Source: a candidate division WWE3 bacterium RIFOXYC1_FULL_40_10
GTDB lineage: Bacteria > Patescibacteriota > WWE3 > UBA101185 > UBA10185
DNA: 64,000 nt
Assembly: GCA_001773215.1 (NCBI GenBank)
Contig: MEWB01000001.1
Location: 614,099 to 678,098, forward strand
Direction: 5' to 3'
The position numbers were made by a program, and so were the translations under genes. Under the pieces are notes generated by a model, which saw only the letters and a program-made list of their open reading frames with translations, searched no databases and was not told the origin of the DNA. Shown here in pieces: positions 1 through 62,313 of the stretch (the stretch's first letter is position 1; each line of letters begins with the position of its first letter).

Positions 1-2468
1 TGAACCTTGAATTCTCTTCCGGACGAATCCAACACTTTGGTATTGGCTAACTTTGCCTCTTCACTAACACCTGTCTCAATCTCACCATGCTTATACTCTA
101 TTTTTTTGTTCTCCAATGAATTCTTTGATTTCACTCTCTTATCTGCATCTTGAACAACTGCAACGAGTCTATCTCCCATATTCGAATAGATCTGAGTAAT
201 TAATATACCAAATCTTTCGTGTCCTTCTTTTTTGTATTCCACCATAGGATCCTTTTGGGCATATCCTCTTAATCCTATCCCCTCTCTCACCTGATCCATA
301 TCAACTAAGTGTTCCATCCACAGAAAATCTATAACCGGCAAGCTGAGTTGGGAAACAATATTAAGCCAAATTTCCTGGCCAAATTCTTCTTCTCTTTTAT
401 CCCAGTCCTTTCTCCTAAAACTAGAGTTTTCCGCTAACTTATCCATTAACCATTGCTGATACTCAACAAAGCCTGATTCGAGCTCCAGTACTCTTCTTCT
501 CAACTTATAAACAACTTCTCGGTGTACGTTTATAACGTCATCCATTTCAACAAGCTGTTTACGTCTATCAAAGTTAAAACCTTCAACTCTCTTTTGAGCA
601 TTTTCAATTGATTTTGTAACTATTCCGGCTTCTAGAGGAATGCTTTCGTCAACCCCAAATCTATCCATAATCCCCTGCATTTTGTCACCGCCGAATATTC
701 GCATTAAATCATCTTGAAAGGATACAAAAAACCTTGAAGATCCCGGATCCCCTTGTCGTCCCGATCGTCCCCTAAGCTGATTATCTATTCTGCGCGATTC
801 GTGTCTCTCAGTTCCTATAACGTGCAACCCGCCTGAGTTTTTGACTGCCTCATAAAGTTTCGCGTCAAATGGATCGCCGCCTAAGATGATATCGACTCCC
901 CTACCGGCCATGTTTGTTGAAATCGTGACAGCTCCTTTTTTACCGGCTTGTGCAATAATCAAGGCTTCACGTTCGTGGTTTTTTGCATTCAAAATTTCAT
1001 GCGGAATGTTTTTACGAGTAAGAAAATTATGCAGTAACTCACTCTTTTCGACCGAAGTTGTACCAACCAAAACCGGTTGGCCATTCTTATGCCTCTCTGC
1101 AATCTCCTCCGCTACTGCCTTAAATTTTGCAGACTCGCTCTTGTAAACAAGATCATTATTATCTTTTCTTATTAACGGTTTGTGCGTAGGGATTTCTAAT
1201 ACATCAAGTTTATAAATCTTATAAAACTCTTCGGCCTCAGTTAGGGCAGTACCCGTCATGCCCGCAAGTTTTTTATACATTCTAAAATAATTTTGATATG
1301 AAATTTCAGCTAAGGTTTTGGACTCCTGCTGAATAGTAACACTCTCTTTTGCTTCAATTGCCTGGTGTAGGCCGTGAGAATATCTGTTGCTTGGGAGCAA
1401 TCTTCCGGTAAACTGGTCGACAATAATAACCTTATCGTCTTTAACAACATAGTCCCGATTTTTTTCGTACAAAGCATATGCAATAAGAGCTTGCTCTATT
1501 AGGTGAACCATTTCGAAGTCTTCTTCGTAAAGGTGTTCTATGCCCAGTAATCTCTCGACTCTTCTTATGCCTAAATCCGATAGAGTAGCTGTCCTAAATT
1601 TTTCATCTACATCATAATCCTGATCCTTAGCCAACGATCTTATAATTTTATCGGCTTCCAAATATCTGGATGCTGATCGAGAGTCAGCGGCCGAAATAAT
1701 CAAAGGAGTACGGGCTACGTCAATAAGTATGGAGTCGACTTCATCTACAATTGCGTAATTATGCTCCCCCCAAGTTCCAATAGGATTTGTTTGAACCATC
1801 TCGTTAATATTTCTCACCATATTATCCCTAAGGTAGTCAAAACCAAACTCGTGATTAGTTCCATAAGTGATATCAGCTTTGTAAGCCTCTGCTCGTGAAA
1901 CTTCGCGTAAGTGAATAGCATACATATCGTCAAACTCAGTTCCTGTATAGGAAGAATCGTAAATAAAAGCTCTGTCCTGCATTATTACACCCACAGTCAC
2001 TCCAAGCATTTCATATATCTTACCCATCCACCCTGCACCATGACGTGACAGATAATCGTTTGGAGTTACTAAGTGAACACCTAACCCTGCCAGTGAATTA
2101 AGATATAAGGGCAAAGTTGCTGCATTGGTTTTTCCCTCACCGGTTTTTAACTCAGCTATTTTCCCCTGGTGCAAAACCACACCTGCAATTAGTTGAACAT
2201 CATGTAAAACTTTTCCGTCATCAACCTGCCTGGTTACTTCTTTAACCAAAGCAAAGGCCTCGGCTAGAATACCGTTCAAATAGTCTTCTCGCCTATCCCT
2301 CTCGCTTATTTCAGCTAAAGCTTGTTTCCACACCAATGTTTTTGATTTAATCTCATCTGGTTGGATATCCTTAAGTTTTTCATATAAATCGTTTATTCTG
2401 TCAACCTGAGGTTTAAGCTTATTAATTTGGCGTCCATTGGAATCCAGTAATTTTCTGATAAAATCCAT
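1..2468 (-). CDS. secA: Preprotein translocase ATPase SecA (C-terminus runs off the window start)
   Basis: My translation of the minus strand gives MDFIRKLLDSNGRQINKLKP...KIAELKTGEGKTNAATLPLYLNSLAGLGVHLVTPNDYL..., the typical SecA N-terminus and Walker-A-like motif. It is absent from the ORF track only because it lacks a stop codon in the window. Confidence 0.85.
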   Translation of the reverse strand, partial: MDFIRKLLDSNGRQINKLKPQVDRINDLYEKLKDIQPDEIKSKTLVWKQALAEISERDRREDYLNGILAEAFALVKEVTRQVDDGKVLHDVQLIAGVVLHQGKIAELKTGEGKTNAATLPLYLNSLAGLGVHLVTPNDYLSRHGAGWMGKIYEMLGVTVGVIMQDRAFIYDSSYTGTEFDDMYAIHLREVSRAEAYKADITYGTNHEFGFDYLRDNMVRNINEMVQTNPIGTWGEHNYAIVDEVDSILIDVARTPLIISAADSRSASRYLEADKIIRSLAKDQDYDVDEKFRTATLSDLGIRRVERLLGIEHLYEEDFEMVHLIEQALIAYALYEKNRDYVVKDDKVIIVDQFTGRLLPSNRYSHGLHQAIEAKESVTIQQESKTLAEISYQNYFRMYKKLAGMTGTALTEAEEFYKIYKLDVLEIPTHKPLIRKDNNDLVYKSESAKFKAVAEEIAERHKNGQPVLVGTTSVEKSELLHNFLTRKNIPHEILNAKNHEREALIIAQAGKKGAVTISTNMAGRGVDIILGGDPFDAKLYEAVKNSGGLHVIGTERHESRRIDNQLRGRSGRQGDPGSSRFFVSFQDDLMRIFGGDKMQGIMDRFGVDESIPLEAGIVTKSIENAQKRVEGFNFDRRKQLVEMDDVINVHREVVYKLRRRVLELESGFVEYQQWLMDKLAENSSFRRKDWDKREEEFGQEIWLNIVSQLSLPVIDFLWMEHLVDMDQVREGIGLRGYAQKDPMVEYKKEGHERFGILITQIYSNMGDRLVAVVQDADKRVKSKNSLENKKIEYKHGEIETGVSEEAKLANTKVLDSSGREFKV

Positions 2469-34456: not shown

Positions 34457-36118
34457 TTAATTGTTGTACCACCCGCTTGGGTAGCTTGAATAAGAGACTT
34501 CCTCGGAGAAATCCCCCTCCCTGCATCCGTTAACTCCTCTTAGTTTAATCTTTTGCCAGGAGGCTACGTTGGGTAAAAATTCGTGTCCATCATTCTTGGA
34601 TTTAGCTATTTCCCAGGGGTAACTCCCTGTTCCATCATCAATTCGTATTTTCACGTGTTGGGAATCATATTGTGTCCAGGTTAGATACATTCCATTGTCT
34701 TTGGGCTCGAGCTGAATCCAGGTCGTTTCCTCAGGTTCTCTATCTTTGCAGGAAGTGTCTTTGAGAAAGGTAAGTGTGTAAAAAGGTTTCATAAAGATGA
34801 TATGTACAGCACCACGATCAGTACCCCCATTATCATCATACCAAGCTCCAATAACTATGTCGTGAATCCCATCATCATTAAGATCACCGGGGTCAGATAC
34901 TGAAATACCAAAAGCATCAGAATCAGATAAAACGGGGCCGTTCACTGTACTGTCATTTATTTCTGTCGTACTCTTTACAGAACCGTCCCTATTCATAAAG
35001 TGAATGTGTAAAGCTCCTCGATTCGTACCACCATTGTCGTCTCCAGTAGCTCCTACTGCTAAATCCTGTATCTCATCGTTATTCAAATCCCCCAAGGTTA
35101 CTACCGAAGCCCCATATCCATCTAAATCGGAAAGTTGGGGTCCATTCGTTGTACCGTTGTTTATCTCTACTGTGCTTTTTACCGATCCGTCTCTATTCAT
35201 AAAATGAATGTGTACCGTTCCTCTATTGCTGCCACCAGTGTCATCTAGGTTGCCACCTACAGCTACGTCCTGTATCCCATCGTTATTTAGATCCCCTATG
35301 TTTGCAATAGAAAACCCATATGTATCAGTATCAGATAAAACAGGACCGTTCTCGGTGCTATCATTTATTTCTACCGTACTCTTTATAGAACCATCTTTGT
35401 TCATAAAATGTATGTGTACCGCTCCTCTTGAACTACCTCCATTATCATCTCCGCGTGCACCTACTGCTAAGTCCTGTGTTCCATCACTATCCAAATCTCC
35501 TATATTTGATACTGATCTTCCGTAAAAATCATTATCCAAAAGATCCGGACCATTTGCTGTAGTATCATTTATCTCCACTGTGCTTTTTACCGATCCGTCT
35601 CTATTCATAAAATGTATATGTACTGTTCCTCTATCTGTACCACCAGCATCATCATATTGGGCGCCTACAGCTAGGTCCTGTATACCATCGTTATTTAGAT
35701 CCCCTATGTTTGCAATAGAAAAACCGTAAGTATCAGCATCCGATAAAACAGGACCGTTTTCTGTGCTATCATTTATTTCTACCGTACTCTTTATTGAGCC
35801 GTCTTTGTTCATAAAGTGTATGTGTACCGCTCCTCTAGAAGTACCTCCATTGTCATCAAAAGCTGAGCCTGCGGATAAATCCTGTACCCCATCGTTATTT
35901 AAATCTCCTATGTTTGCTACTGCAACCCCGAAATAGTCAGTATTATCAAGTAGTGGCCCGTTTGCCGTTCCATCATTTATCTCCACCGTGGATAAGACTT
36001 CTCCATTGTTATAAAAATGTTTCTTGGTGCTGGCGTAGACGGGATTGGAAAGACTACCTGAACACAGGACACACGCCGTATATGCAGATAAGATAAGAAC
36101 TATGCGATTTTTGGGCAC
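34457..36118 (-). CDS. Secreted FG-GAP repeat (integrin-alpha-like beta-propeller) protein
   Basis: Signal peptide; at least 7 tandem ~66-aa repeats each carrying DLNNDGxQD calcium-loop and F/YG-...-GAP motifs; C-terminal beta-rich domain. Confidence 0.75.
   Translation of the reverse strand: MPKNRIVLILSAYTACVLCSGSLSNPVYASTKKHFYNNGEVLSTVEINDGTANGPLLDNTDYFGVAVANIGDLNNDGVQDLSAGSAFDDNGGTSRGAVHIHFMNKDGSIKSTVEINDSTENGPVLSDADTYGFSIANIGDLNNDGIQDLAVGAQYDDAGGTDRGTVHIHFMNRDGSVKSTVEINDTTANGPDLLDNDFYGRSVSNIGDLDSDGTQDLAVGARGDDNGGSSRGAVHIHFMNKDGSIKSTVEINDSTENGPVLSDTDTYGFSIANIGDLNNDGIQDVAVGGNLDDTGGSNRGTVHIHFMNRDGSVKSTVEINNGTTNGPQLSDLDGYGASVVTLGDLNNDEIQDLAVGATGDDNGGTNRGALHIHFMNRDGSVKSTTEINDSTVNGPVLSDSDAFGISVSDPGDLNDDGIHDIVIGAWYDDNGGTDRGAVHIIFMKPFYTLTFLKDTSCKDREPEETTWIQLEPKDNGMYLTWTQYDSQHVKIRIDDGTGSYPWEIAKSKNDGHEFLPNVASWQKIKLRGVNGCREGDFSEEVSYSSYPSGWYNN
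34860..36000. repeat. Intragenic tandem DNA repeats (FG-GAP blades), about 198/405-bp period; the best pair (around 35285..35480 vs 35692..35885) is about 90% identical
   Basis: Near-identical nucleotide stretches seen directly; antisense ORFs in the track are repeat artefacts. Confidence 0.7.
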
Positions 36119-54198: not shown

Positions 54199-55011
54199 TT
54201 ACAAGCCCAATTGCTCAAGTTTAGCAGCAGTCTCGTCGTGAAGCCGTTTCTCGAGTATCTCCTGAGCATTTATTGTAGCCATCTCTTCTTTTCTACTCTC
54301 TTCCCACGCCTCTCTGGCGGCCAGCCTCCTTGGCTCCACAACTTTTTCACCTAATAATCTTAGGAAAACTGGTGCAAAATTCACAAAGACCTTTAATTCA
54401 TCATCCCCACTCATTTGCATGCCATCTACCCTAACTTTAGGTAAAGGTTGGCCAAAATATTCTGGATAATTGACCACTTTGTAAATGTTTTTAAAGGTGT
54501 GCTTGGGACTACTGAGATCTAGTGTGATCCTTACTCCATTATAAACCAGACCAAGCTCCTCAACATTGTCCTCCTCGAGTTTTGAAGTAAAATCAGACGA
54601 CCCATTATATCGCTCCTCAAACTTCTCAACGAACTGCTTCTCAGTGAGAAGGTACCCGGCCATGTTAGCTATCCTCTCCCCATTAAGAACTTGTTTATCA
54701 CTTGGTCGTAAAAACCCAAACTTCTTCCCTCTAAAATAATTCTCAACCAAAGCCATGGTATGTGCAACAGAGACATCCTCTATAAATTTGTCCGCCTTAT
54801 CACCAAACAAACTTTGTAGTTCTCCAATAAGTGCTTGGGGGAAAGCATAGCCACGTTCCTCGAGTGTATATGACTCCGGTGTCAAACCAGTCATTCTGTC
54901 ATGGATATCAGTGTATTGTTCCCCACCAATTTTGGCAGTGCTGGGACTGGTAACGTAAGATATATCAAAAGGGTTTGCTGTGAATTCTTTTTTCATACCT
55001 ATATTTTGCAC
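54199..55011 (-). CDS. Hypothetical protein (270 aa) inside the methyltransferase cluster
   Basis: No recognisable motif. Confidence 0.35.
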   Translation of the reverse strand: MQNIGMKKEFTANPFDISYVTSPSTAKIGGEQYTDIHDRMTGLTPESYTLEERGYAFPQALIGELQSLFGDKADKFIEDVSVAHTMALVENYFRGKKFGFLRPSDKQVLNGERIANMAGYLLTEKQFVEKFEERYNGSSDFTSKLEEDNVEELGLVYNGVRITLDLSSPKHTFKNIYKVVNYPEYFGQPLPKVRVDGMQMSGDDELKVFVNFAPVFLRLLGEKVVEPRRLAAREAWEESRKEEMATINAQEILEKRLHDETAAKLEQLGL

Positions 55012-55035
55012 TCAACCCAAAGAAGTTGTCAACGC

Positions 55036-55491
55036 TCATCTATTCCATGCTATGCAATTTTTAGCAAACTGTTTCAACGAACCGCTTTTTATAATTATTG
55101 CTTCGGGCTCAAAAACAGCGGCATACATATTTACCAGCGATATTACATCCAATAAAGCCCTATAACTAGATAAACCTGACATATCTATGTATATCTTGGT
55201 AAACTTGTTTCCAAGCCTCATAGCCTCTTTGATGTTGAACGCATCAAGCGTTTCAAACCTTATTTCAGGGTATTTTTGCCTTGCAACTTTAATGCAATCC
55301 AAGCTTATATCCGTAGCAATAAGGTTTTTGCATTTTTCATGAATAAGTGTTGAAGTTGTTCCCCACTCACAGCCAATTTCTAGTATTGAATCTAAAGGCT
55401 TCACCCATTTTTCTATTGTTTGCCTAAACTCTTCCACACCTCTTGTGGCTATAAAAAGAGTTTTGAGCTTATACTGATTTTCATTTGCCAT
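55036..55491 (-). CDS. Class I SAM-dependent methyltransferase (151 aa)
   Basis: ILEIGCEWGTT (motif I), LIATDIS (motif II), IYIDMSG (motif IV-like). Confidence 0.55.
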   Translation of the reverse strand: MANENQYKLKTLFIATRGVEEFRQTIEKWVKPLDSILEIGCEWGTTSTLIHEKCKNLIATDISLDCIKVARQKYPEIRFETLDAFNIKEAMRLGNKFTKIYIDMSGLSSYRALLDVISLVNMYAAVFEPEAIIIKSGSLKQFAKNCIAWNR

Positions 55492-55731
55492 ATAAACACA
55501 CTGCTTGCGCAGCCTTTCTTGTGTGAGTTAGGGAACAAAAAAGCGCCCGAAGCCACACACTAATAAAATACCGAACGGTGTTTTTCTCACTTCGTTCGAA
55601 AAATAATGTATAACTTCTGGCGCTCTAAAGATAGAACTTGCTGAGCTACTCCGCCGTAGGCGAATGACCTCCAGACATTGGTATGCTAACATAGGCGACT
55701 ATATTTAGCAAATAAAGATCAAAATCTCTTT

Positions 55732-55806
55732 TGGTGACCCCACGGGGAATCGAACCCCGATTTACGGAATGAGAATCCGCCGTCCTAGCCGTTAGACGAT
55801 GGGGCC
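55732..55806 (-). tRNA. tRNA-Glu (anticodon CUC)
   Basis: Hand-folded cloverleaf: acceptor GGCCCCA/TGGGGTC, D-stem GTCT/GGAC, anticodon stem GCGGA/TCCGT with loop TTCTCAT, T-stem CGGGG/CCCCG with loop TTCGATT, encoded CCA. Confidence 0.8.
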
Positions 55807-55866
55807 ACGCCTCGCCATTCTAACAATAAACAAATCCAACGGCAAGATTACTGTATAATATTATTT

Positions 55867-56286
55867 ATGTTAAGTGATCTCAAAAAGATTCTTTACTTAC
55901 TGCCTGTTGTAGTAGCTTTACTTTTTGCTTCGTATATTTACTTCAACCGCTATCAACCTAAATCCATTCGCCAAGTTGAAGAAGTTAAGGGTAAACACGT
56001 AGGAAGCAAAGAGGAAGAAATTACATATCCACTTGGAGCAAAAAACGTAAGCTACAACGACACTAGCTCCAAAATCCAAGCAACCTTTCAAACTAATAAA
56101 ACTCCTGAAGAGATCATGAGTTTTTACAAAGCAGTTTTAATGGATAAAGACTGGGAGCTGGATTCCGAAGGAGACGAGAATGGGTTTTATATTTCGTATT
56201 ATCGAAAAGACTCTCAACGGATTAAGATATTGGCATCATTCCAAAGTAGTGATGAGGAAACTTTAGTAAGTGTTGAGAAATATTAA
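55867..56286 (+). CDS. Hypothetical membrane-anchored small protein (139 aa)
   Basis: N-terminal TM helix; no motif. Confidence 0.4.
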   Translation: MLSDLKKILYLLPVVVALLFASYIYFNRYQPKSIRQVEEVKGKHVGSKEEEITYPLGAKNVSYNDTSSKIQATFQTNKTPEEIMSFYKAVLMDKDWELDSEGDENGFYISYYRKDSQRIKILASFQSSDEETLVSVEKY

Positions 56287-58035
56287 CTAGTTATCCTTGG
56301 TTCCAACCAAAAAGATAGCTCTCCAGGGCCGGTAGTTACTTACGAACGTATCTTGGCCTATTATCTCCTCCCCGCGTTTAACAGTTCTTGAAAAGGTTGC
56401 AGTTCCTCCCCATGCAGACCAATCGACCTGCTTAACAGTTCCCTTTGGTAGGGTGGGATCGTCTTGGTATAGCGACGCGGGAGGGGGGCTTTGGTTTGTT
56501 AAAACAGACTCTGAAGTTTCAACTTCCCTACCATCAGGTGTGCCGTAGATACTGAACTTCAACCACTGCTCGGCTTTGTTGTAGTCAGTTTGTACCAAAA
56601 TATAATTTGGCGTGTCATTTTTAAATTGAAAATCTATCGAAGGTTGAAAAATAGTGGCATCAAAACCAGGAGCTCTATCCTGCTCGTAATAGCTAACTCT
56701 ATAATCATGAGGATACCTTGTTACAATCGGCAATCCAGCATCCAAAGCTGCCCTAAACAACGTAGTGGAGGTTTGACAAACTCCCCCTCCCTCACCGAGT
56801 ATTGTTCTTCCCCTGCTTATAATATAGGCAGAATTGTAACCTGTTGCAGCACTAATTTCACCAATGGAATTATTCATCGAGTAGATTTCCCCCGGTGGAA
56901 CCAAAACGCCATTAGTTCTTTCGGCCGCCAAAGTTAAATTGTGAATTCTGGAGGACATTGAACCGTAATAGGTTGAACTGCCTTCTCCCAGCAACGAATA
57001 AATCCCATACTTTGATTTGTCGGTGGGGCCTGATATTACTGTTACCGGAATTTCAACCTGGCTTAAACCGCCAAGATAGGCCTCTTTAAACTGTTCCGAA
57101 AACGCCTTTGTATTAACTTCCAACCCTTTGGAAACTAATTCAAAATCAAGAACCTTTTCCCTATCTACTCTAGTGACTCTTGCCCGGGGAGGATTATTTA
57201 CATCCATCGCAACAGATTGTACAAACAATTCTAGTCGTGGCTCATTTATACCTATTTCCAGCTTATCTCTATTTGTGATATCCAAAAACTCAATTAAATC
57301 CACAGTGGAAAGGGATTTCACATAGTCATTGTATTTCACAGATAACTTATTCATTACAATCCGTTTGATTTGGCTTAATATCTGCTCTACATCTTTTTCC
57401 ACAACTCTTGGAGTTACCTTACTCAAGGGTACCTGTTTTTGCTCGAAATCTAAACCCCCGAAAGAATTCATTACTATCGAATGGAGTTCATCGTTAACCA
57501 CCTTTTTGCCTTCGTTAGACTTAGTTACAACGATAGTATTATTCTCAAAGGCAACTCCGGCATCGACCGCTTGTTTGTTAACGTCCCCTTTTATGAGTGA
57601 ATAATTTCTACTCAGTACATCCTCGTTATAGTCGAAAAACAAATTGATATACAACGGCTTTAAAAACCCAGCCAATTTATCTTTAGAATCGTAAATAATA
57701 TTACCGGTTCGCCCTACTTCGAATGCTCTGGAAATTGAATTATCAACGTCGTATTGAAGGTGGATGTCTTTACCTGCTATTAGATACTTAATATTTCCTT
57801 CGTCGAGAATTAAGTCTGTCTGCGATTCGGCAATCCTTTTTTCTACCAAGGCTTTCGCTTCGGTAAAGTTTTTGCCCCCCACTTTCACCGACCCTATTCT
57901 AACTCCCGGGATAATCCGTTTGGCATAAACAACATGGTAGACTGAAACCAGTACCAAAAAAGCATATAAACAGATTAAGCCTATTCTAATTCTCTTGTTA
58001 GACAGTAATTTAGATAATCGATTCCCGTTTTTCAT
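56287..58035 (-). CDS. VanW-family protein with N-terminal membrane anchor and PG-binding-like repeats
   Basis: GGGVCQTSTTLFRAAL is the VanW (PF04294) signature. Confidence 0.7.
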   Translation of the reverse strand: MKNGNRLSKLLSNKRIRIGLICLYAFLVLVSVYHVVYAKRIIPGVRIGSVKVGGKNFTEAKALVEKRIAESQTDLILDEGNIKYLIAGKDIHLQYDVDNSISRAFEVGRTGNIIYDSKDKLAGFLKPLYINLFFDYNEDVLSRNYSLIKGDVNKQAVDAGVAFENNTIVVTKSNEGKKVVNDELHSIVMNSFGGLDFEQKQVPLSKVTPRVVEKDVEQILSQIKRIVMNKLSVKYNDYVKSLSTVDLIEFLDITNRDKLEIGINEPRLELFVQSVAMDVNNPPRARVTRVDREKVLDFELVSKGLEVNTKAFSEQFKEAYLGGLSQVEIPVTVISGPTDKSKYGIYSLLGEGSSTYYGSMSSRIHNLTLAAERTNGVLVPPGEIYSMNNSIGEISAATGYNSAYIISRGRTILGEGGGVCQTSTTLFRAALDAGLPIVTRYPHDYRVSYYEQDRAPGFDATIFQPSIDFQFKNDTPNYILVQTDYNKAEQWLKFSIYGTPDGREVETSESVLTNQSPPPASLYQDDPTLPKGTVKQVDWSAWGGTATFSRTVKRGEEIIGQDTFVSNYRPWRAIFLVGTKDN

Positions 58036-58561
58036 TTTTTTCGTGCTTGGGGCTTATTTTTCCAATTAGATATTTTTGTGGCTCCTCCGACATATCGACG
58101 AAATAGTCTGCCACCTCTGTGAGTTTAGATGACACTGTTTGTGAAAAACCGATTACTTCGGTTCTAACACCCTGACTTTTCGCGTATTCGAGCAGTTCGG
58201 TATAATCACCATCGCCTGAAACCAGCACCATTGCGTCGATTTTAGGTATTAGCCTGATCACATCCATACACAATCCAACATCCCAATCTCCTTTTTTGGC
58301 ACCACCGTAAAAAATTTGTAAATCTTTTTGGCGTACTTCAAACCCTATTTTTTCTAATGCAGAAAAGAACTCTTGTTCAGCTCCTACGTCTGCTTTAATA
58401 ACATATGTAAACGCCCTTATAAGCTTTCGGCCTGCTATACCTTCGGCTAGTACTTTTGCAAAATTTACTTTTGTGCCGTAAATGTTTTTAGCAGAGTAAT
58501 ACATGTTTTGTACGTCTATAAAAACTCCTACTTTTTGTTCTTTATGTTGTGAAGATATCAT
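58010..58561 (-). CDS. NYN-domain (LabA-like / PIN-like) protein
   Basis: VFIDVQNMYYS...VLVSGDGDY pattern of NYN/DUF88 nucleases. Confidence 0.65.
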   Translation of the reverse strand: MISSQHKEQKVGVFIDVQNMYYSAKNIYGTKVNFAKVLAEGIAGRKLIRAFTYVIKADVGAEQEFFSALEKIGFEVRQKDLQIFYGGAKKGDWDVGLCMDVIRLIPKIDAMVLVSGDGDYTELLEYAKSQGVRTEVIGFSQTVSSKLTEVADYFVDMSEEPQKYLIGKISPKHEKNEKRESII

Positions 58562-58634
58562 TTGTTAATTTTACATCATATTGCGCGAATTAGTAATTTA
58601 AGAGTTTTTGATGATAAAATACTGGGGATTACTT

Positions 58635-58824
58635 TGGGGGATCGTCTAAGTGGGCGCTTGCGCTGCCATTAGACAACCAGCTAATGATATCGTTATAGTT
58701 TAATTGTTCTGATAACTGTATTTCTTTATTGGGGGATCGTCTAAGCGGGCGCTTGCGCTGCCATTAGACAACCAGCTAATGATATCGTTATAGTTTAATT
58801 GTTCTGATAACTGTATTTCTTTAT
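58635..58824 (+). repeat. Two tandem 95-bp direct repeats, each beginning with the first 15 nt of the downstream tRNA-Gln (TGGGGGATCGTCTAA), then a strong hairpin and an AT-rich tail
   Basis: Units 58635..58729 and 58730..58824 differ by one SNP (AAGTGGG vs AAGCGGG). The hairpin GTCTAAgTGGGCGCttGCGCtgCCATTAGAC is seen directly. Confidence 0.8.
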
Positions 58825-58898
58825 TGGGGGATCGTCTAATGGTAGGACACTGCACTCTGGATGCAGGAATTGGGGTTCGACTCCCTGTCCCCCAGCCA
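58825..58898 (+). tRNA. tRNA-Gln (anticodon CUG)
   Basis: Cloverleaf: acceptor TGGGGGA/TCCCCCA, D-stem GTCT/GGAC, anticodon stem CTGCA/TGCAG with loop CTCTGGA, T-stem TTGGGG.../...CCCTG region with GGTTCGACTCC, discriminator G, encoded CCA. The 3' end CCCCCAGCCA is typical of tRNA-Gln. Confidence 0.8.
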
Positions 58899-58933
58899 AG
58901 ATATTATAGGAATTTGCCTACGTAGTTTGGCTT

Positions 58934-59977
58934 TTAGCTCTTGTAAGTTCTAAGAAACCTCCCTATGTCTGAATCTTTTTTAGATTCCAGCTCGATAATA
59001 TATCGAAGGGATTTTCGTGACGACTCAAACCTCCAGTTCATTATTTTATCCGCCTGTTCGTCACCGTAGCGGTTAGCTAAGAAATCCGCAATCGACTTCC
59101 TCGATTCGGAATCTGCGGACAAAAAAGCTCTGTCTATGGTTTCTTGTGTTATGCCACCTTCAATTAAAGTATTCATTATTATCGAAACACCTTCTGTTTC
59201 ATTTTTATAACCAACCACTACACCCCTATTTTCAAATAAACTGTCGCCTCCTTGTATTCCATTGGCTACCTGTTGGGCGTACCACTCCGTAACGCCTTCC
59301 TTAAAAGGTTTGGGCAGGTCGGTTGAAACATCAAGGTCATGTAAAAACTCATGTATTAGAGTAGCCTTTATATTTCTAGCAATAAGTGCCTGCTCCTCAC
59401 TTGTAAGCGATCTAGGTAGCTTCCCACCTTCTTTTTCTATCAACTCCCTTGGTGTATCCCATAACTCCCTTACGACAATAACTTTTTTTTCTGATACATC
59501 CACTTGCATTTCAGTTTTTACAAAAGATCCTGGATATGAGGAAACTGTTGGTCTAGTAAATCCACCCTCGCCTTCTATATCCCTACCTGGATATTGGGTA
59601 GCTCTAAAGAAATCATAGTCTTCGTTGGAAAGTACAAAAACCTTGATTTTGGCTAACGAAAAATCATAGGAGTCCAAATCTGCAAGTTCAAGACCGGGAA
59701 ATAGCCTTTGTAGCTTGTCTTGTGGAATAAATCCGCCTAACATCTTTAATGTATCCCTGAACGATTCTAAGACCAGCTGGGCATGCTTATCTTTATCCAG
59801 AAAACCCGCATGTTTCTCCATCTGAGTAAGGTCTTCCTCTAACATACTGGCTGAGTCAACTTCAATAATTACTTCCCCTCGGTCTTCCGACTCAAAATAG
59901 AGCAAGTGATCGTTTATTGGCTTCGCCTCTAATCCAGTTTTTTCGAAAACTTCCTTTTCCACACCCTCGAACTTCAT
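58934..59977 (-). CDS. Hypothetical protein with HExxH zinc-metallopeptidase-like motif
   Basis: TLIHEFLHDLD followed by downstream Glu residues; otherwise unknown family. First gene after tRNA-Gln. Confidence 0.45.
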   Translation of the reverse strand: MKFEGVEKEVFEKTGLEAKPINDHLLYFESEDRGEVIIEVDSASMLEEDLTQMEKHAGFLDKDKHAQLVLESFRDTLKMLGGFIPQDKLQRLFPGLELADLDSYDFSLAKIKVFVLSNEDYDFFRATQYPGRDIEGEGGFTRPTVSSYPGSFVKTEMQVDVSEKKVIVVRELWDTPRELIEKEGGKLPRSLTSEEQALIARNIKATLIHEFLHDLDVSTDLPKPFKEGVTEWYAQQVANGIQGGDSLFENRGVVVGYKNETEGVSIIMNTLIEGGITQETIDRAFLSADSESRKSIADFLANRYGDEQADKIMNWRFESSRKSLRYIIELESKKDSDIGRFLRTYKS

Positions 59978-60183
59978 GAGTTGATTATATATGAAAAGTT
60001 TTAGTTGAAATAGTGAGTACTTTAAGCAAAATACTCAAACTCGTCTACCAGACATGCTTATACTTTGCATTAAAACCATATAGTATAATTCTAAACATGT
60101 GGTGGGGTGGTGCAAATAATAGCATTGCCGTTTCATAAGCGGCAGATAGAGGTGAAAACCCTTTCCCCACCACCAAATTACGC

Positions 60184-61218
60184 ATGAAAATCAACGATTA
60201 TATAAATAATTTAATAACAAATAAGAGTCCGTACTATCTAACTACTGAAAATGAAAAAACTATCCAATTCGAAGGTATCGAAAAATATATATATAAAGTA
60301 CTCAATAACCATAAATACAAATGTACTAAAACTACAGAAAACTATGACAATATTGTAAAAAATATAATTCGCTTTAGTGTCCAAAATAAACTGCCAATCC
60401 ATCTGGATTTATCGACAGGTGCAACTAAAAATCCGAATGCAATTTCTTCCCCGGGTATTGATTGGGCGGAGGTCTTCAATATTGCATTTATACGTGAGTA
60501 CTTAAAACCAATTGCTGTTGCATACAAGCATGGAGTCGTGCTGGATTACTTCTCTGTCGCCGTATTTGAAGATAAGGTAAATCACATTCCACAAGCCGAC
60601 ATTGAAGCTTATGACAAGCAATTTTCTGAATTGATAAATGTTTATCAAAATTATTTACCTAATAATTTAAAAATAAGATATAGCAGATTAAGTGATAGAG
60701 GTAGTAAGGAGAATATATATATGTCTATGGATAAAAAAATCTCCGAGCTAAGAAGAAACTGGCCTTCCTTGAGCAATGAAGCTAAAAGTGAAAAACTACG
60801 AAGAGCCGAAAGAAACATTTATTTAACCGGAAACGAGCCTGATAAAGATGCGTTGATTTTAACATCTGCCTTATCTCATGACGCTTTTGGTAGTGAGTGT
60901 TGGAGTGACATTGCCAAACCGATTTGGCATGAGGAAGACGATATATCCCTTGGACATAGGTATACTGATGGTTGGGCAATTCACATAAAATCCGCACCCG
61001 GATCAACAGTAAACTATTGGAGCGGGACCGGGGTATTAGTTCGAAAAGGCAATACCTTTGTGCCTACGGTATTAAGCCCTAAGCAATATGATGAAATTTC
61101 AGACAGAATTACTATATTCAAGGATACCTTTTTTAAATCAAATAAAGAACTTTCCGAGAAATTAGATCCAATATTAGTGGCTCCCACAAGTGGAATGTGT
61201 ATCAAGAATAAAAAATGA
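60184..61218 (+). CDS. Hypothetical protein (344 aa), very AT-rich
   Basis: No motif; preceded by a structured leader (see findings). Confidence 0.4.
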   Translation: MKINDYINNLITNKSPYYLTTENEKTIQFEGIEKYIYKVLNNHKYKCTKTTENYDNIVKNIIRFSVQNKLPIHLDLSTGATKNPNAISSPGIDWAEVFNIAFIREYLKPIAVAYKHGVVLDYFSVAVFEDKVNHIPQADIEAYDKQFSELINVYQNYLPNNLKIRYSRLSDRGSKENIYMSMDKKISELRRNWPSLSNEAKSEKLRRAERNIYLTGNEPDKDALILTSALSHDAFGSECWSDIAKPIWHEEDDISLGHRYTDGWAIHIKSAPGSTVNYWSGTGVLVRKGNTFVPTVLSPKQYDEISDRITIFKDTFFKSNKELSEKLDPILVAPTSGMCIKNKK

Positions 61219-61272
61219 TCCCGGATCAAAAGATGCGCGGGATCATGGTTATGGAAACTTGGCAAAAAGTAC

Positions 61273-61896
61273 CTACTCGGGAGAAACGAACACAAACCGG
61301 ACGCTATTACTCCACCGATTGCCAGAGAAAATATAGGAGGCGTTGAGCCGATACTCACCACCATCACGCTTCACGAGAGACACAAGAAGATCGCCATCAG
61401 AAGCCACTAACGGCGGCATCGCTACCACTAGAGCTTCTCCTTCGGGCTGATCTAAGTACTGCAGGCGAAGTTGCGGTCCGACTTCTGCCTCACAGAGATC
61501 AAGACCTTGGGCACAAGCTGCCTTGCAGATATCAGTGTAGGTAGCAGTAGCGTCTTCGGGAAACCCAAGTTCTCCAACAGACAGCACCACGAGCTTCACA
61601 GTCTTCTTGGCTTTGGCTGGTTTCACCTTATCAAGGATGTCACTAGCCCAAGTGCCAATGCTTATTCCCGCCTGTTCAAGCGCGGTACGGAGTGCTTTTG
61701 CATCTTCGAACGTGCCCAGCTCAATAACCTTAAAGATCTCAGGCTTTTCCCAAGGATTTTCCTTGCGTAAAAATTTGCTTAATGCGCGCAACCAACTACC
61801 GCCATCGGGGCCAGCAAGTTTCCCCAGCAGAATCGTAAGCAGTCTCTGAACATCGGAAAGTGTCAATCTAATATCTTTTTTGTCCATGAGAGTCAT
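61273..61896 (-). CDS. Hypothetical protein (207 aa) in a GC-rich (about 50%) segment
   Basis: Start moved to the internal ATG (MTLMDKK...) to remove the overlap with the upstream ORF; no motif. Confidence 0.35.
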   Translation of the reverse strand: MTLMDKKDIRLTLSDVQRLLTILLGKLAGPDGGSWLRALSKFLRKENPWEKPEIFKVIELGTFEDAKALRTALEQAGISIGTWASDILDKVKPAKAKKTVKLVVLSVGELGFPEDATATYTDICKAACAQGLDLCEAEVGPQLRLQYLDQPEGEALVVAMPPLVASDGDLLVSLVKRDGGEYRLNASYIFSGNRWSNSVRFVFVSPE

Positions 61897-61900
61897 CCTT

Positions 61901-62203
61901 TTAATTGATTGTTTGTGCCAATGGAAATTTCGCTTCGCATTTAGTAACGATACTGATCGAATTGCCATCTATCTTTTCCACGCGAAGATAGGCTGTAGCC
62001 ACTCCAGTTTCCTGGGACACAAGGTCAAATGCAAAGTCACTCGCTGCTTGCGCTAGCTTCCGTATAGGAACCCCACTATCCATCTCGGCGGTCTCTAAAT
62101 TTGGAGATAGCATTACTACTGCCAGCGTTTCTGACTCAATACTTACATATCCCCGGATCTCACAGTCTGCTTCATGGTGCACCTTAAAACTCTGCCATCC
62201 CAT
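61901..62203 (-). CDS. Hypothetical protein (100 aa), GC-rich, co-transcribed with 61273..61896
   Basis: 4-nt gap to the downstream gene; composition is foreign-looking. Confidence 0.35.
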   Translation of the reverse strand: MGWQSFKVHHEADCEIRGYVSIESETLAVVMLSPNLETAEMDSGVPIRKLAQAASDFAFDLVSQETGVATAYLRVEKIDGNSISIVTKCEAKFPLAQTIN

Positions 62204-62313
62204 AAACTACTCCTTTCCTTCCTTTAGTATTCGGATATAGCAAGCATTATTAACACACAAGCCTATAAAGATCAAACAAAGTACAGTTATATCGGCTATG
62301 CTAAAATTACACC

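What the first reader, a model, noticed from the sequence alone, without database searches (positions are those of the whole stretch)
58620..58900. Tandem 95-bp repeats that each carry the 5' 15 nt of tRNA-Gln plus a strong hairpin, immediately upstream of the intact tRNA
The sequence TGGGGGATCGTCTAA occurs three times at exact 95-bp spacing: 58635, 58730 and 58825. The third copy is the 5' end of a well-formed tRNA-Gln(CUG).

In the first two copies the tRNA sequence is replaced after nt 15 by GTGGGCGCTTGCGCTGCCATTAGAC. This folds back on the tRNA D-stem segment (GTCTAA...TTAGAC with an inner GCGC/GCGC helix) into a stable stem-loop. It is followed by about 55 nt of AT-rich sequence that looks like the tRNA promoter/leader.

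The two units are identical apart from one T/C difference, so the duplication is recent.

This is not CRISPR: only about 2.8 copies, no spacers, 95-bp period. It is also not the usual 3'-tRNA att duplication left by integrases.

Possibilities are: a duplicated promoter-leader cassette that produces short tRNA-5'-fragment-plus-hairpin RNAs, scars of an element that targets the tRNA 5' half, or a slippage-prone regulatory array.

The region immediately downstream of the tRNA (58934 to the window end) is a hypothetical-protein island with a GC-rich insert, consistent with this tRNA being a hot spot.
Basis: seen in the sequence. Interest (0 to 1): 0.6.

Follow-up and report, generated by a model that had tools for sequence, protein, structure and literature searches.

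The report
Scrambled tRNA-Gln 5' stubs, tandemly repeated
Just upstream of a glutamine tRNA gene in a tiny-genome groundwater bacterium sit two near-identical 95-bp units, each made of the gene's first 15 bases, a back-to-front copy of the next bases and an AT-rich promoter-like stretch; this is most likely a local DNA-copying accident that was later amplified, though similar stubs at four other Glu/Gln tRNA genes leave room for a real function.

Summary
The 15-mer TGGGGGATCGTCTAA occurs at 58635, 58730 and 58825, and the third copy starts tRNA-Gln(CUG). The two 95-bp units differ by one base.

The organism is candidate division WWE3 bacterium RIFOXYC1_FULL_40_10. The array appears in many independent assemblies, with 1 unit, 2 units or an unresolved gap.

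- The hairpin is no more stable than shuffled sequence (z = -0.13).
- Its 3' arm is an inverted copy of tRNA nt 10-21 (11/12).
- The 80-nt module is not dispersed.
- No recombinase gene lies among the neighbours examined.

Four more tRNA-Glu/Gln genes in CPR bacteria carry the same architecture: a 5' stub ending in or just past the D-arm, then an inverted tRNA-derived piece (combined p about 7e-6). One of these elements is conserved between two species.

Best explanation (about 0.5): local duplication with fold-back template switching at the D-arm, then unequal crossing-over between the 16-nt repeats. The effect would be a longer leader and extra promoter-like sites.

Rivals: a selected leader RNA, the 5' mirror image of the RtT repeats at E. 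coli tyrT (about 0.2); a scar of integration at the D-loop, a known but rare integrase target (about 0.15); an assembly artefact (about 0.03).

Moderate interest; a new variant of a known kind.

The parts
58612..58620 (+). Extended -10-like motif TGATAAAAT. It ends 14 nt before nt 1 of the first stub and is a candidate original promoter of the tRNA.
   Evidence: Sequence and motif scan. The same TGnTAnAAT motif lies 10-32 nt before other tRNA genes: tRNA-Glu(CUC) in the window, tRNA-Gln(UUG) in L132 and tRNA-Gln in the relative L054. This is an inference; A does not align significantly with L054.
58634..58728 (+). Repeat unit 1 (95 bp): 16-nt repeat r, 25-nt GC-rich segment H and 54-nt AT-rich segment P.
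   Evidence: TRF; unit comparison.
58729..58823 (+). Repeat unit 2 (95 bp), identical to unit 1 except C at 58746 (T at 58651).
58634..58649 (+). r copy 1: T plus tRNA-Gln nt 1-15 (5' acceptor strand, nt 8-9, 5' D-stem strand, first two D-loop bases).
   Evidence: sequence.
58729..58744 (+). r copy 2.
58824..58839 (+). r copy 3, the start of the intact tRNA.
58644..58674 (+). Imperfect palindrome GTCTAAG-T-GGGCGCTTGCGCTGCCATTAGAC (hairpin of unit 1).
   Evidence: Fold at -13.9 kcal/mol, z = -0.40.
58739..58769 (+). The same palindrome in unit 2.
   Evidence: Fold at -13.8 kcal/mol, z = -0.13.
58663..58674 (+). CTGCCATTAGAC, an inverted copy of tRNA nt 10-21 (11/12), in unit 1.
   Evidence: Tested on the identical unit-2 copy; coordinates.
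58758..58769 (+). The same inverted D-arm copy in unit 2. In the 306-nt fold it pairs with nt 10-21 of the real tRNA.
   Evidence: 6/1000 shuffles; my reading of the minimum-free-energy structure.
58670..58699 (+). Sigma-70-like site TAGACA-18-TATAGT (10/12). Its -35 hexamer overlaps the hairpin's 3' arm.
   Evidence: Consensus match only: 8 sites were found in the region against 7.3 expected.
58765..58794 (+). The same promoter-like site in unit 2, ending 30 nt before the tRNA.
58825..58898 (+). Intact tRNA-Gln(CUG) with encoded CCA.
   Evidence: ARAGORN; Rfam RF00005, 56.4 bits.
58010..58561 (-). Divergent neighbour: NYN/LabA-family protein (context only). The same tRNA-Gln/NYN adjacency exists in WWE3 genome L054, without any stub.

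Best explanation
The array is a lineage-specific local rearrangement of the tRNA-Gln(CUG) promoter-proximal region. It is neither a mobile element nor a dedicated RNA gene.

**Step 1 (inferred).** A replication error copied the first 15-16 nt of the gene a second time. Through a fold-back template switch at the D-arm, which is a natural short inverted repeat, it also laid down an inverted copy of nt 10-21 next to the stub. The result was r-S-r.

**Step 2 (inferred from the r-S-r-S-r geometry and the apparent copy-number differences).** Unequal crossing-over or slippage between the 16-nt r copies amplified the 95-bp module. Populations now show 1, 2 or perhaps more units.

**Consequence (inferred).** The tRNA is transcribed with a leader of up to about 200 nt from the upstream TGATAAAAT site, and/or from the promoter-like TAGACA-18-TATAGT site that each unit carries. 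RNase P then removes the leader. The stubs cannot form tRNAs and are by-products. Any fitness effect would come through tRNA dosage.
For: - **Geometry.** There are three copies of a 16-nt repeat but only two of the 79-nt spacer. This is what recombination between pre-existing short direct repeats gives, not a simple duplication.
- **Recent and apparently polymorphic.** The units differ by one base, and assemblies show 1, 2 or gapped arrays.
- **Derived state.** The related WWE3 genome L054 has the same NYN/tRNA-Gln adjacency with no stub.
- **Template-switch signature.** The insert holds an inverted copy of tRNA nt 10-21 (6/1000 shuffles). Four other stub elements at tRNA-Glu/Gln genes each hold an inverted piece of their own tRNA's 5' half: L132 16/1000, L014 7/1000, L187-Glu 62/1000, L187-Gln 16/1000. 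Fisher combined p = 7e-6, or 9e-5 without the discovery case.
- **Breakpoints.** Exact identity of all five stubs to their tRNA ends in the D-loop (nt 14, 15, 14, 20, 20); the L187-Gln and L014 stubs may continue, diverged, to about nt 25.
- **Control.** In classical 3'-fragment arrays, 5 of 6 inserts lack an inverted piece.
- **Small inserts.** All five inserts are tiny (42-131 nt) and hold no gene.
- **No mobile-element evidence.** No recombinase is among ten neighbouring proteins or near L014. S occurs nowhere else in the window, in 190 fetched loci or in viral contigs.
- **Established process.** Template switching at short inverted repeats is known to expand arms, invert spacers and amplify segments (PMC8604942, PMC7954356, PMC13100816, PMC11790251).
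Against: - The origin of most of S (13 nt of H and the 54-nt P) is unexplained. It matches neither the tRNA's 3' end plus trailer (378/2000 shuffles) nor the reverse complement of the upstream region A.
- A full fold-back model, in which the leader is inverted too, fails in 3 of 4 cases tested.
- No close relative exists (the next NYN homologue is at most 77% identical). The ancestral state cannot be reconstructed, and which r is original is unresolved.
- Five elements at Glu/Gln tRNAs, one of them conserved between two species with a 12/13-conserved non-tRNA leader segment, is more recurrence and persistence than pure accident easily predicts in streamlined genomes.
- The sampling was biased towards Glu/Gln loci.
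Confidence: 0.5

Rival explanations
1. A selected leader RNA module: the 5'-side mirror image of the RtT repeats of E. coli tyrT. Each unit would be transcribed with the tRNA and released when RNase P matures it. It would then act as a small RNA, as a processing or insulating hairpin, or as a switch. In the switch version, the antisense segment pairs either with the stub or with the true 5' end of the tRNA and so controls maturation.
For: - There is a precedent for tandem tRNA-linked repeats that carry a terminal tRNA segment. E. coli tyrV is followed by 3.1 units of 178 bp, each ending in the last 19 nt of tRNA-Tyr, with rttR annotated in the first unit.
- RtT-like units follow tRNA-Gln in L035 and L052: RF00391, 30-38.5 bits over the full model.
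- RtT RNAs are released during tRNA processing (PMC4986893).
- The tRNA-Glu stub hairpin is collinear and homologous in two species, with conserved arms and leader and a diverged loop. It folds well: -20.7 kcal/mol, z = -2.7 and -18.1 kcal/mol, z = -3.9.
- In folds of stub plus tRNA, the antisense piece pairs with the true 5' end.
Against: - The Gln hairpin is no more stable than shuffles.
- There is no Rfam match.
- The element is absent from 4 of 6 sampled relatives at the Glu site and from L054 at the Gln site.
- The five elements differ in which tRNA segment is inverted, which fits a recurring process better than a conserved structure.
- With two sequences, covariation cannot be assessed.
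- There are no expression data.
Confidence: 0.2
2. A scar, or a miniature non-autonomous remnant, of site-specific integration at the D-loop sublocation of the tRNA gene. An element carrying the promoter plus tRNA nt 1-15 in its attP would have integrated upstream, displacing the original 5' end. Nearly all of the element was later deleted and the r-S module was duplicated.
For: - r covers exactly the 5' acceptor strand, the D-stem and the start of the D-loop. This is the extent reported for Klebsiella islands that integrate upstream of a tRNA-Arg gene (bioRxiv 10.1101/2020.11.02.365908).
- Viral contigs hold orphan 5' tRNA-Gln fragments directly next to tyrosine integrase genes: L141, L155 and L162, PF00589 at E = 1e-21 to 1e-23.
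- The first stub follows a promoter-like motif typical of tRNA genes in this genome.
Against: - The inserts are 42-131 nt in all five cases, with no gene. Five independent near-total deletions that keep both att copies are unlikely.
- There is no integrase among the window neighbours or in L014.
- The would-be attP junction (P-r-H) and H-P are absent from 2.9 million viral contigs.
- The arms GTCTAA and TTAGAC are 19 nt apart. From general knowledge of tyrosine recombinases, core sites flank a 6-8-bp overlap.
- This model does not predict the inverted tRNA pieces.
Confidence: 0.15
3. An assembly artefact: a single copy expanded by the assembler, or reads from the two tRNA-Gln genes wrongly joined.
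For: - Repeats of 95 bp are hard for short-read assemblers.
- One scaffold has a gap inside the array (L009).
- One contig (L011) joins the tRNA-Gln(UUG) upstream region to the tRNA-Gln(CUG) body at their shared 24-mer.
- L005 stops 20 nt into the tRNA.
Against: - At least one stub plus the intact tRNA is present in every assembly.
- Both unit types (T and C) are resolved identically by different assemblers and in different samples.
- The stub-hairpin sequence is not part of either tRNA-Gln gene.
Confidence: 0.03

Closest known systems
RtT repeats of the E. coli tyrT-tyrV operon (Rfam RF00391, rttR)
   Same: - Tandem units lie next to a tRNA gene on the same strand. Each carries a terminal segment of that tRNA: 19 nt, near-identical (matched allowing 1 mismatch), there and 15-16 nt, identical, here.
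- There are a few copies (3.1 there, 2.2 here) with high unit identity.
- They are presumably co-transcribed with the tRNA.
- RtT-like units also follow tRNA-Gln in L035 and L052.
   Different: - RtT units lie downstream and carry the 3' end. These lie upstream and carry the 5' end.
- The unit is 178 bp there and 95 bp here.
- The window does not match the RtT model.
- RtT units in L035 and L052 include terminators; none is predicted here.
- RtT inserts mostly lack inverted tRNA pieces.
att duplications from tyrosine-integrase elements at the tRNA D-loop / 5' sublocation
   Same: The direct repeat equals the 5' acceptor strand, the D-stem and part of the D-loop. The displaced 5' fragment lies upstream of a restored gene (bioRxiv 10.1101/2020.11.02.365908; viral loci L141, L155, L162).
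   Different: - There is no element, no integrase and no cargo between the repeats, only 79 nt.
- The units are tandemly duplicated.
- The insert contains an inverted tRNA piece.
Template-switch (quasi-palindrome / fold-back) mutations and the hairpins they create
   Same: - An inverted copy of adjacent sequence is placed next to its source.
- Breakpoints lie at a pre-existing short inverted repeat.
- A new hairpin results, and duplication of the flanking segment is possible (PMC8604942, PMC7954356, PMC13100816, PMC11790251).
   Different: - Published cases are mostly eukaryotic or in E. coli reporter genes. They are not described at tRNA gene 5' ends, as far as my searches reached.
- Only part of the insert can be traced to a template here.
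tRNA gene fragments and pseudo-tRNAs in prokaryotic annotation
   Same: These are partial tRNA gene copies next to the intact gene (PMC9897764).
   Different: - That paper attributes fragments to element integration or CRISPR spacers, and it does not treat 5' fragments separately.
- The stubs here are too short to be called by ARAGORN or Rfam.

Membership tests
CRISPR array | Short repeats (about 23-50 nt) separated by unique spacers of similar length. | tested here: not met
   The 16-nt repeats are separated by 79-nt segments that are identical to each other apart from one base.
Integrase att duplication (D-loop / 5' sublocation) | The direct repeat is identical to a segment of the tRNA gene that ends at a stem-loop sublocation. 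| tested here: met
   r is tRNA nt -1 to 15 and ends in the D-loop.
Integrase att duplication (D-loop / 5' sublocation) | A mobile element with a recombinase gene lies between or beside the repeats. | tested here: not met
   Only 79 nt lie between the repeats. Ten neighbouring proteins have no integrase, resolvase or transposase domain.
Integrase att duplication (D-loop / 5' sublocation) | A matching attP exists in a free element. | tested here: not met
   P-r-H and H-P patterns gave 0 hits in viral contigs.
RtT RNA (RF00391) | A match to the covariance model. | tested here: not met
   No RtT hit at E <= 1 in 55000-61000. By contrast, L035 and L052 score 30-38.5 bits.
RtT RNA (RF00391) | Tandem units beside a tRNA gene, each carrying a terminal segment of that tRNA. 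| tested here: met
   Met in mirror image: 5' end and upstream, instead of 3' end and downstream.
Template-switch (fold-back) product | An inverted copy of neighbouring sequence, beyond chance. | tested here: met
   nt 10-21 matches 11/12, reached by 6/1000 shuffles. Five elements combined give p = 7e-6.
Template-switch (fold-back) product | Breakpoints at a pre-existing inverted repeat. | tested here: met
   Exact identity of all five stubs to their tRNA ends in the D-loop, which is flanked by the D-stem; the L187-Gln and L014 stubs may continue, diverged, to about nt 25.
Template-switch (fold-back) product | The whole insert can be derived from local templates when compared with the ancestral sequence. 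| tested here: inconclusive
   Most of S has no identifiable template. No close relative is available to give the ancestral state.
Dispersed intergenic repeat (REP / MITE) | Multiple copies at unrelated sites. | tested here: not met
   No other copy in the 64-kb window or in 190 loci. The rest of the genome was not available.
tRNA gene or pseudogene | A cloverleaf detectable by ARAGORN or the Rfam tRNA model. | tested here: not met
   Only the third copy is called.
Type III toxin-antitoxin RNA repeats (ToxI-like) | Tandem RNA repeats directly upstream of a toxin gene on the same strand. | tested here: not met
   Downstream on the same strand is a tRNA. The NYN gene is divergent.

The most novel reading that the evidence does not exclude
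CPR bacteria possess a previously undescribed class of tRNA-linked leader elements at Glu/Gln tRNA genes. Each consists of a 5' stub of the tRNA plus an antisense copy of its 5' half. The element would be transcribed with the tRNA and would act as the 5' counterpart of RtT RNAs. For example, it could be a switch in which the antisense segment pairs either with the decoy stub or with the genuine 5' end, gating RNase P maturation. It could also be a released small RNA. The window's 95-bp array would be an amplified member of this class.
Probability: 0.12. Interest if true: 0.7.

Novelty: new variant of a known kind. Interest (0 to 1): 0.4.

Why it matters
If the ordinary reading is right, this locus is a clean natural example of two things. 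First, the hairpin-rich DNA of a tRNA gene seeds fold-back template switching. Second, short direct repeats then drive copy-number change in a promoter region. Annotators of CPR genomes would need to recognise such stubs.

It also documents, from viral contigs, that 5'-side tRNA-Gln fragments occur beside integrases, which is relevant to att-site prediction tools that assume 3' fragments.

If the stubs prove to be functional, they would be a 5' analogue of RtT RNAs. They would also be a new handle on tRNA-Glu/Gln maturation in organisms that, from general knowledge, make Gln-tRNA through the shared Glu/Gln pathway.

Tried and rejected
1. **Unit as a whole-gene pseudogene.** I tested whether the post-hairpin part (CCAGCTAATGATATCGTTATAG) is the tRNA 3' end plus trailer. 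It is not significant (378/2000 shuffles).
2. **L011 as evidence of an integrated element at the 5' end.** Rejected. Its upstream sequence is that of the second gene, tRNA-Gln(UUG), in the normal genome (L132). The join is at the shared 24-mer, and L005 ends at k-1 = 20 nt. A chimeric assembly or a recombinant is more likely.
3. **Full fold-back model with the leader inverted too.** It is marginal in L132 (232/5000) and absent in the window, L187-Glu and L187-Gln.
4. **A or P homologous to the L054 upstream region.** Not significant.
5. **Scan of genome contigs with the 15-mer.** It was useful only for L014, L054 and controls.
6. **Closer relatives through NYN homologues.** The next homologue is at most 77% identical, and those loci lack tRNA-Gln beside NYN.
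7. **Known RNA families.** None was found in the stub elements.
8. **Other readings.** Integron attC, IS200/IS605 ends, an invertible promoter and ToxI-like repeats were considered from the sequence and dropped. The reasons were size, spacing, the lack of a second end, or gene orientation.

Full report
**1. The observation**

The 15-mer TGGGGGATCGTCTAA is present exactly three times in the window, at 58635, 58730 and 58825 (no shuffle gave three). Tandem Repeats Finder reports a 95-bp period, 2.2 copies and 99% identity over 58634-58839. ARAGORN and the Rfam tRNA model call tRNA-Gln(CUG) at 58825-58898.

The identity starts one base before tRNA nt 1, so the repeat r is 16 nt. The layout is r-S-r-S-r, with S = 79 nt: three copies of r and two of S. 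The two 95-bp units differ only at 58651 (T) versus 58746 (C). The non-tRNA parts of the unit occur nowhere else in the 64-kb window.

**2. Source and reality of the array**

The flanking NYN-domain protein and the 347-aa protein are encoded on dozens of contigs. These include NCBI GCA_001773225.1 (MEWE01000002.1), the Rifle aquifer scaffolds, JGI contigs and MEGAHIT contigs. The organism is candidate division WWE3 bacterium RIFOXYC1_FULL_40_10.

Every assembly has at least one stub plus the tRNA, and many resolve both unit types. Some have a single unit (L003, L004/L010), and one has a 100-N gap in the array (L009). The one-unit contigs are 99.96-99.98% identical to the window. Real copy-number variation and assembly collapse therefore cannot be separated without reads.

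**3. A false lead resolved**

Contig L011 has the same tRNA-Gln(CUG) and downstream gene, but unrelated upstream DNA with tRNA-Lys and tRNA-Glu(UUC). A metagenome scan showed that in the normal genome (L132) those tRNAs lie next to a second gene, tRNA-Gln(UUG). That gene shares its first 24 nt with tRNA-Gln(CUG). L011 is a join at this shared 24-mer, and L005 from the same sample stops 20 nt into the tRNA. This points to a chimeric assembly or a recombinant, not an integrated element.

**4. Anatomy of the unit**

- The hairpin (GTCTAAG...CATTAGAC) folds at -13.8 kcal/mol, but its z-score against dinucleotide shuffles is -0.13. It is not unusually stable.
- Its 3' arm, CTGCCATTAGAC, is the reverse complement of tRNA nt 10-21 with one mismatch. 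Only 6 of 1000 shuffles of the insert reach this.
- Each unit has a sigma-70-like site, TAGACA-18-TATAGT (10/12), whose -35 hexamer overlaps the hairpin arm. This is a consensus match only.
- Upstream of the first stub is TGATAAAAT, ending 14 nt before stub nt 1. The same extended -10 motif precedes other tRNA genes of this genome and the tRNA-Gln of the relative L054.
- No terminator-like site is predicted.

**5. Comparative state**

L054 (WWE3 RIFOXYD1_FULL_43_17) keeps the order tRNA-Gln, NYN, VanW, AF_1845, tRNA-Glu(CUC). Its 176-nt tRNA-Gln/NYN intergenic region has no stub. The array is therefore derived.

No closer relative exists: the next NYN homologue is at most 77% identical, and those loci lack tRNA-Gln next to NYN. 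Neither A nor P aligns significantly with the L054 upstream region. Which copy of r is original cannot be shown.

**6. The same architecture elsewhere**

Four more elements turned up, labelled E2-E5 (E1 is the window element):

- **E2, same genome.** In the tRNA-Lys/tRNA-Glu(UUC) spacer (L132 2349-2408), a stub of tRNA-Glu nt 1-14 is followed by a GC hairpin and an inverted copy of nt 4-14. The fold is -20.7 kcal/mol, z = -2.7.
- **E3, species L187.** This is the homologous element. It is collinear with E2, has a 12/13-conserved non-tRNA leader segment (ACGAGCAAARCGA) and a diverged loop. It amounts to an insertion of about 58 nt relative to L184 and L188, whose spacers are 23-25 nt. The stub sits in the ancestral leader context.
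- **E4, also L187.** Upstream of tRNA-Gln(UUG), the stub TGGGGAATCGTCTAATGGTA is followed by a hairpin whose 3' arm complements the D-loop region. Its loop holds an inverted copy of the anticodon loop.
- **E5, L014 (Paceibacterota).** A 20-22-nt stub is followed by an inverted copy of nt 24-35 and a second direct piece of nt 17-28.

Exact identity of every stub to its tRNA ends in the D-loop; the L187-Gln and L014 stubs may continue, diverged, to about nt 25. The inverted-piece tests give 0.006, 0.016, 0.007, 0.062 and 0.016. Fisher's combined p is 7e-6, or 9e-5 without the discovery case.

Among 166 other tRNAs in the fetched loci, nothing similar appears once adjacent Glu/Gln genes are discounted. 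That sample was biased towards tRNA-Gln loci.

**7. Mobile-element hypothesis**

5'-side tRNA fragments are not unheard of. In viral contigs I found 14 orphan tRNA-Gln 5' fragments, three of them directly next to tyrosine integrase genes (L141, L155, L162). [quoted passage not shown]

The evidence at this locus points the other way:
- There is no gene between the repeats.
- There is no recombinase among ten neighbouring proteins or near L014.
- The unit junction that would be the attP is absent from viral contigs.
- All five inserts are only 42-131 nt.
- No 3' fragment of any of the three window tRNAs exists elsewhere in the window.

**8. A mirror-image precedent**

Arrays of 3' fragments downstream of tRNA-Gln in L035 and L052 match the RtT model over its full length, below threshold at 30-38.5 bits. 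In E. coli K-12 I verified that tyrV is followed by 3.1 units of 178 bp, each ending in the last 19 nt of tRNA-Tyr, with rttR annotated in the first unit. RtT RNAs are released from tRNA operon transcripts during processing (PMC4986893).

Five of six inserts in the 3' arrays I examined lack an inverted tRNA piece. That signature is therefore particular to the 5' stubs.

**9. Interpretation**

Several features fit replication template switching at the D-arm inverted repeat, followed by unequal crossing-over between the r copies:
- the r-S-r-S-r geometry;
- the recency and apparent polymorphism of the array;
- its derived state;
- the breakpoints, where identity to the tRNA ends in the D-loop;
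- the inverted tRNA pieces;
- the small, gene-free inserts.

Template switching of this kind is established in the literature (PMC8604942, PMC7954356, PMC13100816, PMC11790251).

What this does not explain is the origin of most of S, and the recurrence of such stubs at Glu/Gln tRNAs with one element conserved across species. I therefore keep a selected leader RNA as the main rival (about 0.2) and an integration scar as the second (about 0.15).

Tested and dropped: the unit as a whole-gene pseudogene, and a complete fold-back that includes the leader.

**10. Verdict**

The feature is a new variant of known kinds: tRNA-linked tandem repeats, tRNA gene fragments and template-switch hairpins. Interest is moderate. 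It would rise if a wide survey or transcript data showed that the stub elements are conserved or expressed as discrete RNAs.

Noticed in passing
L132 2349-2408 (same genome as the window); L187 1045-1126 (minus strand): The tRNA-Lys/tRNA-Glu(UUC) spacer holds a stub of tRNA-Glu nt 1-14, a hairpin and an inverted copy of nt 4-14. The element is homologous in two species. Four other relatives lack it: L184, L188 and L190 (spacers 3-25 nt) and L185, which shows no stub in the 73 nt available upstream of its tRNA-Glu.
   Followed up: yes
L187 894-971 (minus strand); L014 2964-3116: Stubs of tRNA-Gln (20-22 nt) with hairpins and inverted tRNA pieces lie upstream of intact tRNA-Gln(UUG) genes in two other CPR lineages.
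   Followed up: yes
L011 7154-7706 versus L132 2128-2680; end of L005: Contig L011 joins the upstream region of tRNA-Gln(UUG) to the body of tRNA-Gln(CUG) at their shared 24-mer. L005 ends 20 nt into the tRNA. This is probably a MEGAHIT chimera, possibly a real recombinant.
   Followed up: partly
L035 1357-1880; L052 about 1830-2182 (minus strand); L054 5032-5175: Tandem units of about 175-187 nt lie downstream of tRNA-Gln. Each has a terminator and the tRNA's 3' end, and they match RtT (RF00391) below threshold. A single such unit follows tRNA-Glu(CUC) in the WWE3 genome L054.
   Followed up: partly
L141 3757-4830; L155 5857-6939; L162 5319-6557; L174 479-1081; L160 2-622: Viral contigs carry orphan 5' fragments of tRNA-Gln (about 22-45 nt). 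They lie directly beside tyrosine integrase genes (L141, L155, L162) or Endonuclease VII genes (L174, L160). This suggests att sites on the 5' side of tRNA-Gln.
   Followed up: partly
window 61200-62250: A 1-kb patch at 45-53% GC stands against a 39% background. It holds two minus-strand ORFs with no Pfam match, and gene calls there differ between contigs (L001 versus L003/L009). It lies 2.3 kb past tRNA-Gln and 1 kb past tRNA-Met, with no tRNA fragment bounding it.
   Followed up: partly
window 34902-35990: A large tandem repeat with period 204/408 nt, about 5 / 2.7 copies and 70-77% matches. It is probably a repeat-domain coding region.
   Followed up: no
L188 1-1490 (CP011214.1); locus of P0014 (no DNA held): Large serine recombinase genes lie next to tRNA-Gln(UUG) in the L188 genome (its neighbouring protein P0138 is named as Candidatus Woesebacteria), and next to the AF_1845 gene that is followed by tRNA-Glu(CUC) in related loci. 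The L188 recombinase is not among the genes called for L189, another contig that carries the identical P0138 protein.
   Followed up: no
window 55732-58898; L054; L134-L139: The gene order NYN, VanW, AF_1845 is conserved in all these relatives. tRNA-Glu(CUC) follows it in all but L139, where no tRNA was found. tRNA-Gln precedes it only in the window and L054. tRNA genes of this genome appear to use extended -10 promoters (TGnTAnAAT) 10-20 nt before the mature 5' end.
   Followed up: partly
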